Shown here one piece after another: positions 24,001 through 33,000 of a DNA stretch of 64,000 bases (within the stretch, counting starts at the first letter, position 1; each line of letters begins with the position of its first letter). The stretch lies in the NCBI GenBank assembly GCA_963727505.1, contig CAVSGP010000004.1, positions 512,001 to 576,000 on the forward strand, written 5' to 3'. The DNA is from an uncultured Trueperaceae bacterium. Lineage in GTDB: Bacteria > Deinococcota > Deinococci > Deinococcales > Trueperaceae. A program made the position numbers.

Positions 24001-27000
24001 GCGTCGGCCTCCGCGAGAGCGAAGGCGAGATACTCGGGGTGGTCGGTGGCCAGTTGGACCGCGCCGCCGGGTCGCAGGCGGCTGGCGGCGAGACGGAAGA
24101 AGGCGCGCTGCAACAGGCGCCGCTCGGCATGACGCTCTTTCGGCCAGGGGTCGGGGAAGTTGACCACGATGCCGGCCAGGGCGTGCTCGGCGAAGAGGTG
24201 GCGGAGCGCGAACTGCGCCCCCGCCTTGGCCAGACGCACGTTGGCGACACCCTCGCGGCGCACACGCCGGAGCGCGCGCTGCACGCTGGCACTGGAGATC
24301 TCGAGCCCAACGAAGCCGGTGCCGGGCTCGTCCAACGCGCGGCGCACCGTGAAGCGCCCGTCACCGAAGCCGATCTCCAGGTGGACAACGCAAGGCTCTC
24401 CGAACTCGGCCGCCCAGTCGACCGGGAAGGGGCGCGTGCGCCAGGGCAGCAACGGGCTGAGCGGGGCACGCTCGTCCATGGGTAGGCTCCTCGGCAGGGT
24501 CTCAGTCGCGCTTGACCACGGGCCGCACCAGCAGGGCCTCGTTGGCGGCCAGGTCGGACCGGAAGAGGGTGTCGCGCGAGAACAGGATGTAGGGGCCGGC
24601 CCCGTCGACGGCGCTGGCTCGGAACACCAGCACCTTGCCGTCCTTGCGCCGGCATGCCACGCGCTGCGCGGGGCCACCGGTGGCGCGCTCCCAGGTGCTG
24701 AGGATGCCGGGATCGAGGCCGGCCACGCCGGCGGCCAGCTCGCTATCGCTGAGACGGGCCACCAGGCGCGCCGTGCGGGGCCGCCGCCCGCGCATCTTCA
24801 ACACGCCCAGGCGCGACAGGCGCTCGACGATGGCGAGCGCGTCGTCTGGATCGAGGCCGGCGTCCAGAGCGATGCGGGTGACGTTACGCTGGGCGTTGAC
24901 GTGAGCGAGCACCTTGCGTTCATCCTCGTTGAGGATGAGTTCCTCGGCGCGTTCGAAGGTGGCGTCGAGCACGGGGACCGCGTCACGCGCGACGGTAGGT
25001 CCGCCCTCGCGGCGCGCCTCGTCGAGGCGCCGGATCGACTCCAACATCAGGTTCTCGGTGCCGCTCCGGATGGTGGACTCGGGCGCGGGGATGCCCATGC
25101 GGAACTCGAAGCTCCCCCGCTCGTCGGCGAACAGCGCGTAGACCGCTTCCTGGCCCTTGAGCTCGCCGAACTCCGCGTGCACGACCTGACCCTTGTCGAA
25201 GTACACGCGCGCGAGACCCGCAGGATGATCGATCCCGAGGCGCCCCGAGCGTTGCGAACTGGAGAGCAGCTGGAAGAGATCGACCAGCGAGAAGAGGCCC
25301 AACGTTCCGGTCACGGCCGCATTCTACCTTCGAGGTCGCGGACCGGAACCGGGGTGCGGGTCCGGTCGGGCAACGCCACGGCCGCGTGCACGAACGCCTC
25401 GCGCTCGGCGTCCGGCGCCAGCGCTACCACGCCCTCACGCCCCTCGATCCAGTCGTGGTGCACCAGCGCCGCATTGGCAAGCACGCTCGAGCGTCCACGA
25501 GGCGCGAAGCCGAACACCTCTCCCACCAGCATCGGGTTGAGGCCGTAGCGGAGGTGGACCCGTCCCTGCAGCAGCGCCCGCAGTCCGCGTTCCAGCCACG
25601 CCTCCCCCTCGCTCAGACTGGCGTCCGGCGGCCACGGGCGACCCCAGTCGGCGTCGTTGGCGCTGGGCTGCACCAGCACCTCCGCTCCCTGCGCGTCGAG
25701 CGCGGCGACGATTCCTTCGTACCAGCCGTCCAGGCAAACCGCCACGCCGACGTTGCCGCAGGGCGCTTGCATCACGGGAAGCTCGGCCAGCCGGCCGCGT
25801 GCGAGTCCCGCGCGCGACTCGAGCCCGGGGGTGAGGAACACCTTGCGACTGCGCCCGAGCAGGCCGCCGCCCGGCGCGAAGGTGTAGGCGACGTTGTGGA
25901 CGTGCCGGGCGATCACGTGGGGACCGCGCCCCGCTTCGATGTCGATCTCGGGGAGAAACGCCGAGCCCCCGACGACGGTGGCGCCCGTCTCCCTTGCCAC
26001 CGCGCGGAAGGCGTTCACGTAGGCGTCGTGCACCTCCAGCGCACGCGCCAGATGAACGGCAGCGGGTCCGGCGGCCCGGTACCGCCAGGCTGCCGCCAGC
26101 ACCTCCGCCCAGCGGCCTCGCAACGACCGCCACGCCGCCTCCATCACGGTGGCGCTGCCGGTCACCCGACCGGCGTCGCCAAGCGTGAACATCAGGGGCA
26201 TCGCGATCGCCTCGGGAAAGGCCAGCAGCACCTCGCCTCGATCGTCCGGCAGCGTCGCCACCGCCTCGCGTGCCAGCCGCATCGTCCAGGCCGCGAAATG
26301 CGCGGCGCTACGGTACGGGGCCTCGGAGAGGGCGGCCTGGACGGCCACGAGGTGAACGCGCACGCTTCAGTCTAGCCGGACAGCACGCGCCGAAGAAGCT
26401 ACGGCTGGGACGCATCGCACCGCGATGCGCCGGAGACCCGACGGTATACTGCGCTGGTGCCCGCCCGTTTGGCGCGTTACCTGCTTCGCGAGACCGCGGG
26501 GCTCTACTTCGTGGGCGTCGCGGCCTTCTGTCTGCTGCTGTCCATCGACCTGCTGAGCGTCCTCGCGCGCTTCCTGATCCAGCAGAGCGCTACGCTCGGG
26601 CAGGTCGGGCAGTTGTTGCTGTACAAGCTGCCCTACTTCTTCCACCTCAGCTTCCCCATCGCCGTGGTCTTCGCCGTGCTGCTCGCCACGGGGAGGCTTG
26701 CGAAGGACTCGGAGCTCAAGGCCGCCTACGCGCTGGGGGTGCGACCGCTCGACCTGGCCGTCCCGCTGGTCGCGCTGGGCCTGCTGGTGGGTGCCGTGAG
26801 CCTGGTGAACAACGGCTTCCTCGAGGCGCGGGCCGAGAACGCCTACCAGCACATGATCGACGGCTTCATCTACGTTCGGCCTCCCGCCCAGGTGCAGACG
26901 AACGCCTCGTTCCGCATCGAGGGCGAAGGCGTCTTCTACGCGGCGCGCGTGCGCGGTAACCTCCAGCACCTGCAAGAGGCGAGCCTACAGGGCGTCCTGG

Positions 27001-30000: not shown

Positions 30001-33000
30001 CGGTGAGCGGCTCATCGATTGGAACTCCGACATCACGGCGAAGCAGACCGTGGCCGACGCGGGCTCGCTGTCGCTGACGTTGCTGCGTGATACGGCCCAG
30101 GGCGAGACCCCGTTCGCGTTCGATCAGATCCCGCTGAGGACCCGCACGGAGTCGAACGCGACGCTCCTCCTCGACCCGCTGGCGTGGGCCAGCCTCGAGG
30201 TGAAGGGCGGCTACGTCTTCGTCGACAGTCGCGACCAGCAGAACCTGGGAGTGCAGCCGATCGATTCCACCCTGAGCCTGTTCAGGAACACCGACTGGAT
30301 CAACCTCAGCGTCAGCAACAGCTACGACGTGAAGAACCAGGATCCCGGAACGATCGACACCAAGCTCGACCTGACCTCGCAGGGCGACCTGAAGGCGTCG
30401 CTGAACCTCGAACACGTCGAGGATCTCAAGGCCACCCCCGACCGGCTCAGCGGCATCGTGACGGACCAGACCCACTCGCTGGCGAAGGCCAGCCTGGCCT
30501 ACGCCGGCGTGGTAGAGCTGTCGATCAGCGGCGGCTACAACTACGCTCCACCGCCTCCGCCGGCGGGAGGGCCGTCACAGGCGTGGGATCCGCTCGATCT
30601 CTCCCTCACCCTGGGAACGCTCCAACAGGGCGACGCGACACCCGGCGTCAAACTCACCTACGAGCGCGACCTCAATGCCGGCAAGGTCACCGCCCTGCAG
30701 GTCGACGCCGCCGCCGCAGCCGGTCCCTTGCAGTTCAGCGCCTCGGAGCGGCTGGCGTTTCCCGCAGGCACCGTGGCGTCGAGCTCGTTGCGTCTGGCCT
30801 GGCCAGGGATCGCCGCGCTCGAGGCCGATGGACTGGCGTGGCTCGAGCCCGGCTGGCTGGGCTTCCCGGGCGATCCCACCGTCAGCCGCGGGCTGTCGTT
30901 CCGGGTCGAGGACGCCCCCGGCGCCGGCTCCCCGATCTGGCAGGTGCGCTACGACACCCTCTTCGATCCCACCCTGAACGGAGGCGCAGGCGGCTACCGC
31001 AACACCGACCTGACCACACGCGCCGTACTGACCGACCGCCAGGTCGGCCCCGCCAACTTCAGCGTGGACCTCTTCTCCGACATGCCGCTGCGCGACGACC
31101 TGCAGCCCATCTCCTACCTGCGCCGCGCCAGCCTCACGTTCGGAATCGATCTCTACCAGACGGTCGGCTTGCAGGGGTCGCTGGGCTACAACGGCGCCTA
31201 TTCCAGCGCCACGCAGTCCGTGACGAGCGAAGTGCTCACCCTCGGTGACGTCGCTCTCATCGTGCGCCCCCTCAAGGAACTCTATGTTGGAGCAGTGCTG
31301 AACGACACCTGGGACTTCTCGGGCAACGATCCCAACCACCCGGCATTCAATCTGCAGCCGACCTTCGTGGCGGCCTGGAACCGCTGCTGCTGGGCGCTGT
31401 ACAGTTCCTGGGACAGCGCCACCGGTCGCTTCAAGATCGCGCTCACCACACCGGGCGCGCAGAAGGGATTGCTGCAGATGTTCGATACCGGCCTCACCCT
31501 GCCGGGAGCGAAACCGTGAGGCGGCTGCGCACGCTGGCGCCGCTGCTGCTCTTGCTGGTGGGGGTCGTGGCGGGATGCACCGGCACGAGTGAGAACGTGC
31601 CGCCCCTGCTGCTGGCGGTGGGCCGGCAGGATCCAACGAACCCGTCGGCCTCCCAGATGGTGCTGGTGGAGGACAACTTCACGACCAACCAGGCCACGCT
31701 CAGAACGCTGACCGTCGTCCCGGGCAGCGCCCGGCCCCTGCCCTACCCGGCAGTGGCGTCCGACGTGGTCGACCGCGCTGGGGCGCGATCGAGCATGGTG
31801 GTGCTGACGCGCGACCTGTCTGGAGGGACCTCCCCGAGCTCGGCGCTGGCGACCTTCAACCTGGTCGGCATCGATCCGGCTGCGCCCACGGCCTTCGCCC
31901 AGCAGTCGACGACGGCGCTCAGCGGCGCCGCGGGGGATGCGTTGCAGTCCTACGCCCCGGTCTGCCCGACCGGCGTGACGGTGTCGGCGACGGGACGCTA
32001 CGTGACGATCCTGGACGATCCTGCCGCATGCAACGACACCGCGCGTTACCCCCAACTGTTCCAACTCGACACGCAGACAGGCAACGTGCAACCGGTGGTC
32101 CTCAACAGCGGGGTGCAGGTCACGCAGCCGACCGTCCCCGTCGACGACCAGATCACCCCCGACGAGACGCTCTACTTCCTGGTGCCGGGAACCAACAACG
32201 CCCAGGTCTGGGCCGACCCGGTGCCGCACGACACCAGCCTCGAGAAGCAGGTGGCCAGCCTGCCAAGCCAGGACCAGACCGCGCTCGCGACCAACGGCAC
32301 GGATCTGGTGGCCGTCACCAATCCCTATCCCTACACGTCGGGGAGTTACGTGCAGTCGTTCGTGCAGACCGTCACGCCCGGACTGCTGACGCCTACCGGT
32401 ACCCAGATCGACACGATCTACGGGGCGAATGCGCTGGCCATCGATCCGTCGGACGCGACTTCCCAGGTGGTGGTGGCCGGTCACAGCTCGACAGGGTACG
32501 GGCAGATCGCCGTGCACCCCGATCCGAGCACCAAGCCCACGGCGACCACGCTCGACTATGCGGGCTACAGCGGGACGGCCGCAGCCATCGACCCGGTGAA
32601 CCGCTTCGCCTACGTCGTCGACAACGAGCGCATCGTCGTGCTCGACCTGCTCAGCATCGCCAGCCAGCCTAACGGTTGGTACAAGGCGTTCGACTTCTCG
32701 AGCACATCGGATCTCGCGCTGCCCCAGGACGCCACCGGACGCTACGCGACGGCGCTGGCGTGGACGCGCGCCAAGCCGACGACACCCTGACCGCCGGGCC
32801 CGCCCGGCCAGGCAGCGTCAGGCGGGCAACTCCACCTCACCCAGCCCCGCGATCCCGCTCCGGATGTGTTCGACCAGACGGCCCTCGACTGCTCTGTGGG
32901 CGGTGCGCAACGCGCTCGCCACCGCCCGTGCGTCGGCGCTGCCATGTCCGATGAAGGCGTGCCCATCGACGCCGAGGAGCGGTTGCGCACCGTACTCCGC

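What a model noticed while it worked through the whole genome (the two positions that open the first line are those of the whole stretch)
26457..32790. Pfam-invisible LptD homolog with a beta-propeller lipoprotein in the LptF-LptG operon
g00906 (C4:540589-543519, 976 aa, no Pfam, NCBIfam or Swiss-Prot match) is a very divergent LptD: signal peptide, N-terminal beta-jellyroll and a large C-terminal beta-barrel, encoded directly behind lptF (g00904) and lptG (g00905). It keeps two Cys in the N-terminal part (C148, C151) and two adjacent Cys near the C-terminus (C933-C934), invariant in 25 relatives, as in LptD of E. coli (recalled). The next, overlapping gene g00907 (424 aa) is a lipoprotein (VAGC) that folds as a 7-bladed beta-propeller; no LptE-like gene is found, so it is the candidate partner. 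The gene is kept also in Trueperaceae without LpxC, so its cargo is probably not only lipid A.
Evidence so far: AF2 model from 25 sequences, pLDDT 83.3, all-beta. Foldseek against PDB: all rows up to rank 26 are LptD/LptDE structures, E 5e-15 to 1e-5, probability 1.00, about 800 aligned columns for the full-length ones. Invariant Cys columns. g00907 model pLDDT 89.5, pTM 0.88; best PDB matches are 7-bladed propellers. g00906 homologs in 97 of 100 other Trueperaceae genomes, LpxC in 87 of 100 of the same kind of sample.
(Added by a program. Inside this text positions count along the whole contig: contig position 512,001 is position 1 of the stretch shown here. "Call 12" and the like, gene names such as g00115 and contig names such as C1 are that model's own, and its searches are not shown. 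The text may have been shortened before it was handed on; [...] marks where a part breaks off. The agent that wrote the report below was given it as the finding of a first reader that could run no searches.)

Follow-up and report, generated by a model that had tools for sequence, protein, structure and literature searches.

The report
Divergent LptD with conserved lipoprotein partner
A four-gene operon in a Trueperaceae bacterium encodes a very divergent form of the outer-membrane end of the lipid-export (Lpt) bridge, and this protein sits next to the same uncharacterised lipoprotein gene across the Deinococcus-Thermus phylum, even in relatives that lack a key lipopolysaccharide gene.

Summary
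The ORFs are real: lptF, lptG, a 976-aa ORF (g00906) and a 424-aa lipoprotein ORF (g00907), joined by 0- or 4-base junctions. The last two have no Pfam or NCBIfam hit. Sequence profiles give the same answer independently. A g00906-family profile finds LptD_N/LptD/DUF3769 proteins of other phyla (E 1e-16 to 1e-8) and aligns to an LptD alignment at E 3e-39. Its conserved cysteines align with E. coli LptD C173 and C724/C725. The family is in 151 of 151 sampled Deinococcota genomes; LpxC is in only 31 of them. LptE passes its cut-off in 0 of 151.

New here: the lipoprotein is also phylum-wide (149 of 151, mostly single copy). It lies directly downstream of the LptD gene in 141 of 146 genomes. Its mature N-terminus, C-T-G-T/S-x-E, is nearly invariant, although the whole protein averages 23% identity.

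The LptD assignment is not new: UniRef and NCBI already name orthologues LptD. The partner lipoprotein was not found in print. Binding is untested and the propeller fold is only weakly supported.

The parts
26457..27521 (+). lptF/lptG-family inner-membrane permease gene (354 aa)
   Evidence: PF03739 E 4.8e-61 over residues 7-348. The NCBIfam LptF and LptG equivalogs score 98-104 bits, below their cut-offs of 230-240.
27518..28588 (+). second lptF/lptG-family permease gene (356 aa). Its GTG start overlaps the upstream stop by 4 bases.
   Evidence: PF03739 E 1.2e-66. The start is read from the junction sequence and from where the Pfam match begins (residue 111 of the longer ORF that starts at 27203).
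28589..31519 (+). g00906: divergent LptD-like outer-membrane protein (976 aa). It starts on the base after the lptG stop.
   Evidence: family profile and profile-profile links to LptD. No Pfam or NCBIfam hit.
28589..28654 (+). predicted Sec signal peptide of g00906 (residues 1-22, ending AQA)
   Evidence: Read by eye; no predictor was run.
28745..29188 (+). N-terminal OstA/LptD_N-like (beta-jellyroll or beta-taco) region, about residues 53-200
   Evidence: Profile positions about 50-240 are the part matched in LptD_N-bearing proteins. hhalign aligns 53-200 to E. coli LptD 62-226. The boundary is approximate.
29030..29041 (+). C148-x-x-C151 motif (FSPCSRC)
   Evidence: Invariant in 31 of 31 sequences. 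C148 aligns with E. coli C173. The Thermus equivalents are C136 (invariant) and C139 (>=90%) in 44 phylum-wide sequences.
29186..31516 (+). C-terminal region, presumed large beta-barrel (about residues 200-976)
   Evidence: hhalign runs on to residue 654, opposite E. coli 708. The C-terminal part aligns locally. An amphipathic alternating pattern runs throughout (crude). No 3D model was obtained.
31385..31390 (+). adjacent C933-C934 (NRCCW)
   Evidence: Invariant in 31 of 31 sequences. Aligns with E. coli SCCY = C724/C725 (A1 C-terminal part E 2.2e-4; phylum-wide A4 C-terminal part E 1.5e-8).
31516..32790 (+). g00907: lipoprotein (424 aa). Its GTG start overlaps the g00906 stop by 4 bases.
   Evidence: phylum-wide, mostly single-copy family encoded directly downstream of the LptD-like gene.
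31567..31593 (+). lipobox VAGC and conserved mature N-terminus C-T-G-T-S-E (residues 18-26)
   Evidence: C21, T22, G23 and T24 are invariant in 23 homologues found by similarity search. E at +6 occurs in 26 of 30 paired genomes. In a crude census of 255 lipobox ORFs in the own genome, this is the only C-T-G-T.

Best explanation
The operon lptF-lptG-g00906-g00907 encodes both ends of an Lpt-type envelope lipid-export bridge.

g00906 is a true but very divergent LptD. It has a secreted N-terminal OstA-type domain that would receive the cargo, and a long C-terminal part that is presumably a large barrel. The two parts are tied together by cysteines homologous to those that form the activating inter-domain disulfides of E. 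coli LptD.

g00907 is a dedicated outer-membrane lipoprotein subunit of this translocon. It takes the place that LptE, and perhaps LptM or LptP, holds elsewhere. It is probably a beta-propeller. Its lipidated N-terminus C-T-G-T/S-x-E is its most conserved part.

In this LpxC-positive organism the cargo is most likely a lipid-A-type glycolipid. Most of the phylum lacks LpxC but keeps the whole module, so there the same machine must move another amphiphile, such as a glycolipid or lipoproteins.

Shown here: homology, gene order, conservation, cysteine alignment, lipobox and phylogenetic distribution. Inferred: outer-membrane location, the barrel and propeller folds, physical binding of the two proteins, and the cargo.
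For: Homology of g00906 to LptD:
- Profile A1 (31 sequences) found 383 proteins at E<=1e-3 in 1.84 billion representatives.
- I scanned 23 hits of 680-1163 aa (E 1e-16 to 1e-8). Of these, 22 carry LptD_N at E<=0.01 (9 above its cut-off), 2 carry PF04453 and PF19838 above cut-off, and 1 carries DUF3769 above cut-off.
- DUF3769 is the cyanobacterial LptD family (PMC4365693, passages).
- hhalign of A1 against an 18-sequence LptD alignment gives probability 100, E 3.2e-39 and 537 columns, covering g00906 53-654 and E. coli 62-708.
- The C-terminal parts align at E 1.5e-8 (phylum-wide alignment) and 2.2e-4 (A1), placing CC on E. coli C724/C725. C148 falls on E. coli C173.
- The role of such disulfides is described in the abstract and passages of 10.1101/2023.01.02.522452.
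- The nearest ESM Atlas clusters are a Deinococcota cluster auto-named OstA (0.98), a 29% LptD_N cluster (0.97) and a Spirochaetota LptD family (0.96).

Context:
- The four genes are translationally coupled.
- The own genome also has an LptB equivalog (324 bits), two adjacent OstA/LptA-like genes and LpxC.

Partner:
- Lipoprotein profile A5 matches 149 of 151 genomes, with one match in 147 and two in G076 and G097.
- The lipoprotein gene is directly downstream on the same strand in 141 of 146 genomes.
- It is present in 30 of 32 fetched loci.
- LptE passes its cut-off in 0 of 151 genomes.
- Two Trueperaceae genomes lack both genes together.

Distribution: LptD-like in 151 of 151, LptF/G in 151 of 151, LpxC in 31 of 151.
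Against: Weak or failing tests of LptD homology:
- No curated LptD model recognises g00906.
- Among 44 family members, PF04453 appears once, at E 0.13.
- The phylum profile against PDB sequences puts an LptD chain first, but at E 0.2.
- hhalign against E. coli LptD alone is not significant (E 0.17).
- 17 of the 18 sequences in the LptD alignment A3 were themselves found with the A1 profile. The strong hhalign score is therefore not independent for the N-terminal domain.

No structure or binding evidence:
- No 3D model, fold search or complex prediction could be run. The barrel, the propeller and the binding all rest on inference.
- Propeller support is thin: one WD40 chain at E 3.8e-4, Atlas neighbours, and a propeller-type Pfam hit in 2 of 32 members, both below cut-off (PQQ_2 E 0.0055 and a COPA/B propeller E 0.077).

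Exceptions:
- G172 (1 contig, 97% complete) and G166 have LpxC but neither gene.
- The pair is unlinked in G133 (29 kb apart) and in G024.
- lptFG lie next to the LptD gene in 0 of 9 Deinococcaceae loci.
- The lipid A pathway of the own genome looks partial: no LpxK, no KdtA, and only a weak LpxB match.
Confidence: 0.7

Rival explanations
1. g00906 is an LptD homologue, but g00907 is not a stable subunit. It would be a cargo (a surface lipoprotein exported through the translocon) or a periplasmic or outer-membrane protein with its own function that merely shares the transcript.
For: - No binding test could be run.
- The lipoprotein evolves faster than the LptD-like protein: mean pairwise identity 23% against 32% in 30 paired genomes.
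- LptD translocons are reported to carry lipoproteins in Borrelia (passages), E. coli (PMC12065857, abstract) and Bacteroidota (10.64898/2026.10.03.756453, abstract and passages).
- The pair is unlinked in G133 and G024.
Against: - Presence in 149 of 151 genomes, nearly always as one copy.
- Adjacency in 141 of 146 genomes across four families.
- Co-absence in G172 and G166.
- A near-invariant lipidated N-terminus on an otherwise fast-changing protein.
These features fit a fixed component better than one of many cargos.
Confidence: 0.2
2. The g00906 family descends from LptD but no longer handles lipid A anywhere. It would be a phylum-specific exporter of other envelope amphiphiles, and in LpxC-positive members the lipid A product reaches the outer membrane by another route.
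For: - 120 of 151 genomes keep the family without LpxC.
- G172 and G166 have LpxC without it.
- The own genome lacks detectable LpxK and KdtA.
- LolA was found in only 9 of 151 genomes and in none of 13 Trueperaceae, which leaves room for an Lpt role in lipoprotein traffic.
Against: - Antunes et al. (PMC5007114, passages) infer an ancestral LPS outer membrane in the phylum with later losses. That makes LPS the simplest ancestral cargo.
- The LptD-specific Cys pattern is retained.
- No other LptD candidate is seen: PF04453 gives 0 of 101 Trueperaceae genomes.
- The LolA, LpxK and KdtA models have weak controls.
Confidence: 0.15
3. g00906 is not an LptD relative. It would be an unrelated large outer-membrane protein whose N-terminus happens to resemble OstA domains.
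For: The curated LptD models fail. PDB sequence hits are not significant.
Against: - The profile-profile alignment continues co-linearly far into the barrel.
- The C-terminal CC motif aligns separately.
- A shared PF-x-FD motif appears in both consensus lines.
- The gene sits in an lptFG operon in all 11 Thermaceae and f4 loci examined.
Confidence: 0.03

Closest known systems
Proteobacterial LptD-LptE translocon (E. coli LptD, PF03968 + PF04453, with lipoproteins LptE, LptM, LptY)
   Same: Signal peptide, N-terminal OstA-type domain and long C-terminal part, aligned co-linearly. Two N-terminal plus two adjacent C-terminal cysteines, aligned to C173 and C724/C725. A lipoprotein companion. Linkage to lptF/lptG.
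   Different: Invisible to Pfam and NCBIfam. 976 aa against 784 aa. The first N-terminal Cys is in a CxxC motif, not at the position of E. coli's C1. No LptE. The companion is about 400 aa and propeller-like, not a small plug. It is encoded immediately downstream, whereas E. coli lptD lies between surA and djlA.
Cyanobacterial LptD (Pfam DUF3769)
   Same: Sub-threshold to weak DUF3769 hits in 5 of 44 family members (best E 8e-5) and in profile hits. Both belong to Terrabacteria-type envelopes. The LpxK and KdtA models miss both this genome and the Synechococcus control.
   Different: No member was shown to pass as DUF3769 over its full length. Whether cyanobacteria have a comparable lipoprotein partner was not examined.
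Borrelia burgdorferi BB0838 (LptD homologue needed for surface lipoprotein display)
   Same: An enlarged LptD homologue in an organism or lineage without LPS and without LptE, with other Lpt parts kept (bioRxiv 10.1101/2022.12.21.521298, passages).
   Different: BB0838 has a 362-aa C-terminal extension and no reported adjacent partner lipoprotein. It lies in a uvrB/uvrA operon.
Bacteroidota expanded LPS translocon (LptD, LptE plus LptN, P, Q, R, S, T, U, V)
   Same: LptD with lineage-specific extra lipoprotein subunits. The N-terminus of one of them (LptP) overlays that of LptM. LptQ and LptR are encoded by adjacent genes (10.64898/2026.10.03.756453, abstract and passages).
   Different: Those complexes keep LptE. 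Neither 'propeller' nor 'Deinococc' occurs in that text. Apart from LptQ/LptR, their genes are unlinked to each other.
BamB (beta-propeller lipoprotein of the BAM complex)
   Same: A propeller-type outer-membrane lipoprotein acting as an accessory to a large barrel machine. One of 32 family members gives a weak PQQ_2 'BamB' hit (E 0.0055).
   Different: No significant sequence relation. It serves a different machine. This is an analogy only.

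Membership tests
LptD (LPS-assembly outer-membrane protein) | N-terminal OstA/LptD_N (beta-jellyroll) domain | tested here: met
   The profile reaches LptD_N-bearing proteins at E 1e-16 to 1e-8, with 22 of 23 scanned carrying LptD_N. hhalign gives E 3.2e-39. The Pfam model itself gives no hit on g00906 and only sub-threshold hits in 11 of 44 family members.
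LptD (LPS-assembly outer-membrane protein) | C-terminal barrel homologous to the LptD barrel (PF04453, PF19838, DUF3769) | tested here: met
   The hhalign alignment is co-linear up to g00906 654 and E. coli 708. The C-terminal part gives E 1.5e-8. Tier-3 proteins show weak co-linear second stretches. Caveat: PF04453 itself fails.
LptD (LPS-assembly outer-membrane protein) | 26-stranded (27 in Bacteroidota) kidney-shaped barrel with a lateral gate | not testable with these tools
A crude amphipathic-segment count gives 32-38 for g00906 against 20-28 for an E. coli-first alignment across thresholds 1.5, 2.0 and 2.5. This is only a hint of a larger barrel.
LptD (LPS-assembly outer-membrane protein) | Cysteines for inter-domain disulfides (taco to barrel C-terminus) | tested here: met
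   C148 aligns with E. coli C173, and C933/C934 with C724/C725. They are conserved phylum-wide. Whether the bonds form was not tested.
LptD (LPS-assembly outer-membrane protein) | Works with the other Lpt parts (LptB2FG, LptA/C) | tested here: met
   Same operon as lptF and lptG, and likewise in 11 of 11 Thermaceae and f4 loci. The genome has an LptB equivalog and two OstA proteins. Presence only; no function was tested.
LptD (LPS-assembly outer-membrane protein) | Obligate LptE plug lipoprotein | tested here: not met
   PF04390 gives no match in the own genome and passes its cut-off in 0 of 151 Deinococcota genomes.
LptD (LPS-assembly outer-membrane protein) | Inserts LPS into the outer leaflet | not testable with these tools
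   The distribution argues that LPS cannot be the only cargo: the family is in 151 of 151 genomes and LpxC in 31 of 151.
LptE | g00907 matches the LptE family | tested here: not met
   No Pfam or NCBIfam hit. It is about 400 aa with propeller-like neighbours.
Bacterial lipoprotein | Signal peptide with lipobox and +1 Cys | tested here: met
   VAGC with Cys at residue 21. The Cys is invariant in 23 and in 32 sequences.
Beta-propeller fold (g00907) | Repeated four-stranded blades | tested here: inconclusive
   Profile A5 against PDB: WD40 PkwA at E 3.8e-4, then other propellers that are not significant. Atlas neighbours are PD40, YVTN and lactonase clusters at 0.92-0.95. hhalign self-comparison finds no internal repeat. 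No model was obtained, so the blade number is unverified.

The most novel reading that the evidence does not exclude
Deinococcota use an LptE-free translocon. In it a propeller lipoprotein docks its invariant lipidated N-terminus (C-T-G-T/S-x-E) into the LptD gate region, much as LptM and LptP do. The main cargo of this phylum-wide Lpt bridge would not be LPS but other outer-membrane amphiphiles, possibly lipoproteins. That would give these bacteria, in which LolA is mostly undetectable, an Lpt-based route for building the outer membrane.
Probability: 0.3. Interest if true: 0.75.

Novelty: new variant of a known kind. Interest (0 to 1): 0.6.

Why it matters
What the Lpt pathway does in diderm bacteria without LPS is an open question. 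It has recently sharpened with evidence that LptD exports surface lipoproteins in Borrelia, E. coli and Bacteroidota.

This finding shows that a whole phylum keeps LptF/G, a divergent LptD and one specific adjacent lipoprotein whether or not LpxC is present, with no recognisable LptE.

That corrects surveys reporting lptD as never found in atypical diderms (PMC8871954, passages), which bears on arguments about the origin of the outer membrane.

It also names a concrete, testable partner gene in two genetically tractable, harmless model organisms, Thermus thermophilus and Deinococcus radiodurans.

Tried and rejected
Structure and complex tools:
- For the complex I used the Thermus orthologue pair: barrel part 165-824 plus mature lipoprotein 15-329. 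The window pair exceeds the 1000-residue limit. Searches gave machine errors. One search reported the cap as used. No result of any kind exists.

Searches that added nothing:
- The third homology search, with E. coli LptD as query, listed only near-identical E. coli proteins and gave no diverse LptD set.
- hhalign of A1 against E. coli LptD alone was not significant.
- PDB sequence searches were empty or not significant.
- Self-comparison for blade repeats found nothing.
- The promoter and terminator scan found 0 promoter-like sites, and none of its 4 terminator-like sites lies at the end of the operon.
- Sequencing runs: no RNA holder was listed.
- Earlier-findings look-ups returned nothing.

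Other:
- The mixture-model tree did not finish. The FastTree version was used only for grouping.
- Rejected idea: that the 720-932-aa ORF next to the third lptF/G paralogue on contig C9 is a second LptD. hhalign against the LptD alignment found nothing, and profile A1 finds only one match in the genome.

Full report
WHAT IS IN THE SEQUENCE.

On the + strand of a 70% G+C region lie four ORFs: 26457-27521, 27518-28588, 28589-31519 and 31516-32790. The junctions are a GTGA overlap, a start on the base after the stop, and another GTGA overlap. The four genes are therefore packed as one translationally coupled unit.

The flanking genes are on the opposite strand: a CN-hydrolase gene upstream and plsX downstream.

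The first two products match the LptF/LptG permease family (PF03739, E 5e-61 and 1e-66). The 976-aa g00906 and the 424-aa g00907 match nothing in Pfam or NCBIfam at E<=1. g00906 matches nothing among PDB sequences at E<=10.

g00906 begins with a signal-peptide-like stretch ending AQA, read by eye. It has just four cysteines: 148, 151, 933 and 934. g00907 has the lipobox VAGC.

WHAT I COULD NOT REPEAT.

I therefore have no model, no fold search, no strand count and no blade count. Everything below is sequence-based and independent of those claims.

IS g00906 AN LptD?

A similarity search found 123 relatives, all full-length. Where a name was given, they come from Trueperaceae or Deinococcales. 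In a 31-sequence alignment (A1) the four cysteines are invariant.

A profile of A1, run against 1.84 billion representatives, found 383 proteins at E<=1e-3, in three tiers.
- Tier 1 is Trueperaceae.
- Tier 2 comprises proteins of 784-1060 aa at E 1e-113 to 1e-50. The 11 I scanned are Pfam-blank. Their clusters include Deinococcus, Deinobacterium and Marinithermus proteins.
- Tier 3 runs from E 1e-16 to 1e-8. Of 23 scanned, 22 carry LptD_N at E<=0.01 (9 above its cut-off), 2 carry PF04453 and PF19838, 1 carries DUF3769 above its cut-off, and 2 are LptF/G fusions.

DUF3769 is the cyanobacterial LptD family (PMC4365693, passages).

The match to tier 3 lies in profile positions of about 50-240. 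A weaker, co-linear second stretch falls at about 430-600.

Profile-profile comparison of A1 with an 18-sequence LptD alignment (E. coli first) gives probability 100, E 3.2e-39 and 537 aligned columns. It covers g00906 53-654 and E. coli 62-708. The C-terminal parts, compared separately, align at E 2.2e-4 (A1) and 1.5e-8 (the 44-sequence phylum-wide alignment A4). This puts RCCW on E. coli SCCY, that is C724/C725. C148 falls on E. coli C173.

In E. coli, disulfides between the taco domain and the barrel C-terminus activate the translocon (10.1101/2023.01.02.522452, abstract and passages). The four cysteines are kept phylum-wide: two are invariant and two are present in at least 90% of 44 sequences.

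Feature-based Atlas neighbours agree: a Deinococcota cluster auto-named OstA, a 29% LptD_N cluster and a spirochaete LptD family.

RESULTS THAT CUT THE OTHER WAY.

- The curated LptD models fail on the whole family.
- A4 against PDB sequences ranks an LptD chain first, but at E 0.2.
- A1 against E. coli LptD alone is not significant.
- 17 of the 18 rows of my LptD alignment were found with A1 itself. The hhalign score is therefore not independent for the N-terminal domain.

I still rate LptD homology at about 0.9.

THE ASSIGNMENT IS NOT NEW.

UniRef names the Truepera radiovictrix orthologue (D7CR75) 'LPS-assembly protein LptD', while NCBI calls it hypothetical. The Marinithermus hydrothermalis orthologue is named LptD by both NCBI and UniRef, and the Deinobacterium orthologue by UniRef.

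He et al. cite Putker 2015 for LptD orthologues in D. radiodurans and T. thermophilus (passage; I did not see Putker itself). [quoted passage not shown] My counts contradict that statement.

DISTRIBUTION.

In 151 Deinococcota genomes, all at least 90% complete:

| Feature | Genomes with a match |
|---|---|
| g00906 family | 151 of 151 |
| LptF/G | 151 of 151, usually three matches each |
| LpxC | 31 of 151 |
| LptE above cut-off | 0 of 151 (4 sub-threshold hits elsewhere) |

LpxC by family: f1 9 of 12 plus the own genome, f2 0 of 82, f3 20 of 48, f4 1 of 8.

Both include the unpublished genome G175. Of the 13 genomes without LpxC, 12 keep the gene, among them genomes in 1 to 10 contigs.

A FastTree of 44 family members and 8 LptD references separates the two groups. 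It also recovers three sub-clades that follow the taxonomic families, as expected for vertical descent. This was a quick method and long branches were flagged.

THE LIPOPROTEIN (THE NEW PART).

g00907 changes fast. A first search found only 27 relatives, and its Trueperaceae profile matched 22 of 151 genomes.

Outside Trueperaceae, however, the weak matches covered only the signal peptide, the lipobox and the first strand, and they lay right behind the LptD-like gene. I therefore fetched 20 loci from the other three families and used the 12 Trueperaceae loci.
- 30 of 32 loci have a lipoprotein gene directly downstream. One locus is cut by a contig end and one lacks the gene.
- In the genome that lacks it there, the gene sits on another contig.
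- A profile of the 19 non-Trueperaceae proteins aligns full-length to the Trueperaceae ones. g00907 scores 24.7 bits and the best scores 55.7 bits.

The phylum-wide profile A5 matches 149 of 151 genomes, once in 147 and twice in G076 and G097. Combining the coordinates, the lipoprotein gene starts 2.4-3.3 kb (median 2.79 kb) after the start of the LptD-like gene, on the same strand, in 141 of 146 genomes. The exceptions are G133 (29 kb apart) and four cases on different contigs.

Mean pairwise identity in 30 paired genomes is 23% for the lipoprotein and 32% for LptD. Even so, the mature N-terminus is C-T-G-T/S-x-E.
- C, T, G and T are invariant in 23 homologues found by similarity, not by motif.
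- E at +6 occurs in 26 of 30. My motif search enforced positions 1-4 in that set.
- In a crude census of 255 lipobox ORFs in the own genome, g00907 is the only C-T-G-T.
- A second Cys pair, 150 and 172, is also invariant.

Fold: profile A5 hits a WD40 propeller chain at E 3.8e-4, followed by other propellers that are not significant. Atlas neighbours are propeller families. Pfam is essentially blank on 32 members, and no internal repeat is detectable. 'Propeller' is likely. 'Seven blades' is unverified.

Two Trueperaceae genomes, G172 (one contig, 97% complete) and G166, lack both genes at my thresholds although they have LpxC. G212 has the lipoprotein at the start of a contig.

REST OF THE PATHWAY IN THIS GENOME.

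Present:
- an LptB equivalog (324 bits);
- two adjacent OstA/LptA-like genes of 339 and 376 aa;
- LpxC;
- a weak, partial LpxB match 3 kb from LpxC.

Not found:
- LpxK, KdtA and LptC in the genome scan;
- LolA, which was found in 9 of 151 genomes and in none of 13 Trueperaceae.

The controls for these models are weak. They also miss some LPS-bearing control genomes.

lptF and lptG lie directly upstream of the LptD gene in 11 of 11 Thermaceae and f4 loci, but in 0 of 9 Deinococcaceae loci.

HOW IT MOST LIKELY WORKS.

Every step below is inferred from the homology above.
1. LptB2FG extracts an amphiphile from the inner membrane.
2. OstA-type proteins carry it across the periplasm.
3. The taco domain of g00906 receives it.
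4. The barrel releases it sideways into the outer leaflet.
5. g00907, anchored by its lipid in the outer membrane, is a fixed subunit. It could act as a plug, an assembly aid or a gate regulator, in the place of LptE, LptM or LptP. Its conserved lipidated end would be the contact.

The cargo here is probably a lipid-A-type glycolipid. In the 120 of 151 genomes without LpxC it must be something else.

Recent work makes lipoproteins a serious candidate cargo, and it shows lineage-specific extra translocon subunits.

IN PRINT?

Seven searches found no paper describing a lipoprotein partner of the Deinococcota LptD homologue. I opened no supplementary files. bioRxiv supplements are closed, so the tables of Liu et al. 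on subunit conservation could bear on this claim.

VERDICT.

The LptD call itself is already in public databases. The phylum-wide LptD-lipoprotein gene pair with an invariant lipidated N-terminus is a new variant of a known kind. Binding and both folds remain to be shown.

Noticed in passing
Own genome, contig C9 about 729453-733427 (locus L059:1954-5928), outside the window: A second Lpt-like locus. An ORF of 720-932 aa with no Pfam hit (weak LptD_N, 17 bits) is directly followed by a third LptF/LptG-family permease gene (375 aa, E 8e-50). Most of the 151 Deinococcota genomes show three PF03739 matches, so this third permease seems phylum-wide.
   Followed up: partly
Own genome, contig C9 310702-314629: The lipid A pathway looks partial by Pfam. 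LpxC is clear. LpxB is only a 23.7-bit partial match 3 kb away. LpxK and KdtA are not found. The LpxK and KdtA models also miss the Synechococcus control, so a Kdo-less, cyanobacterial-type lipid A is possible.
   Followed up: partly
Genomes G172 and G166 (Trueperaceae sample): These two genomes have LpxC but neither the LptD-like gene, nor the lipoprotein, nor PF04453. G172 is a single contig and 97% complete. This is unexplained.
   Followed up: partly
Proteins P0259 (1100 aa) and P0296 (1163 aa) from the representative library: These are single-chain fusions of an LptF/LptG permease with a region matched by the g00906-family profile. In P0259 that region also gives weak LptD_N and DUF3769 hits; P0296 shows only the LptF_LptG family in Pfam. 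They recall the fused permease reported for Thermotoga maritima in PMC10160955 (passages).
   Followed up: no
151 Deinococcota genomes: LolA (PF03548) was found in only 9 of 151 genomes and in none of 13 Trueperaceae, although these bacteria make outer-membrane lipoproteins such as g00907. The control set shows the model is not very sensitive.
   Followed up: no
Loci L036-L044 (Deinococcaceae) against L045-L055 (Thermaceae and f4): lptF and lptG are fused into the LptD operon in Trueperaceae, Thermaceae and f4, but lie elsewhere in all 9 Deinococcaceae loci. The LptD-lipoprotein pair stays together.
   Followed up: partly
window 28589-31519: A crude count of amphipathic alternating segments gives 32-38 for g00906 and 31-39 for the Thermus orthologue, against 20-28 for an E. 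coli-first LptD alignment across thresholds 1.5, 2.0 and 2.5. The literature gives 26 strands for E. coli LptD. The barrel may be larger than 26 strands.
   Followed up: no
window 24502-25314 (-) and 25311-26363 (-): A DUF4388 protein gene and a soluble-looking CN-hydrolase gene lie divergently upstream of the operon. plsX (32818-33957, -) converges on its end. No link to the finding was seen.
   Followed up: no
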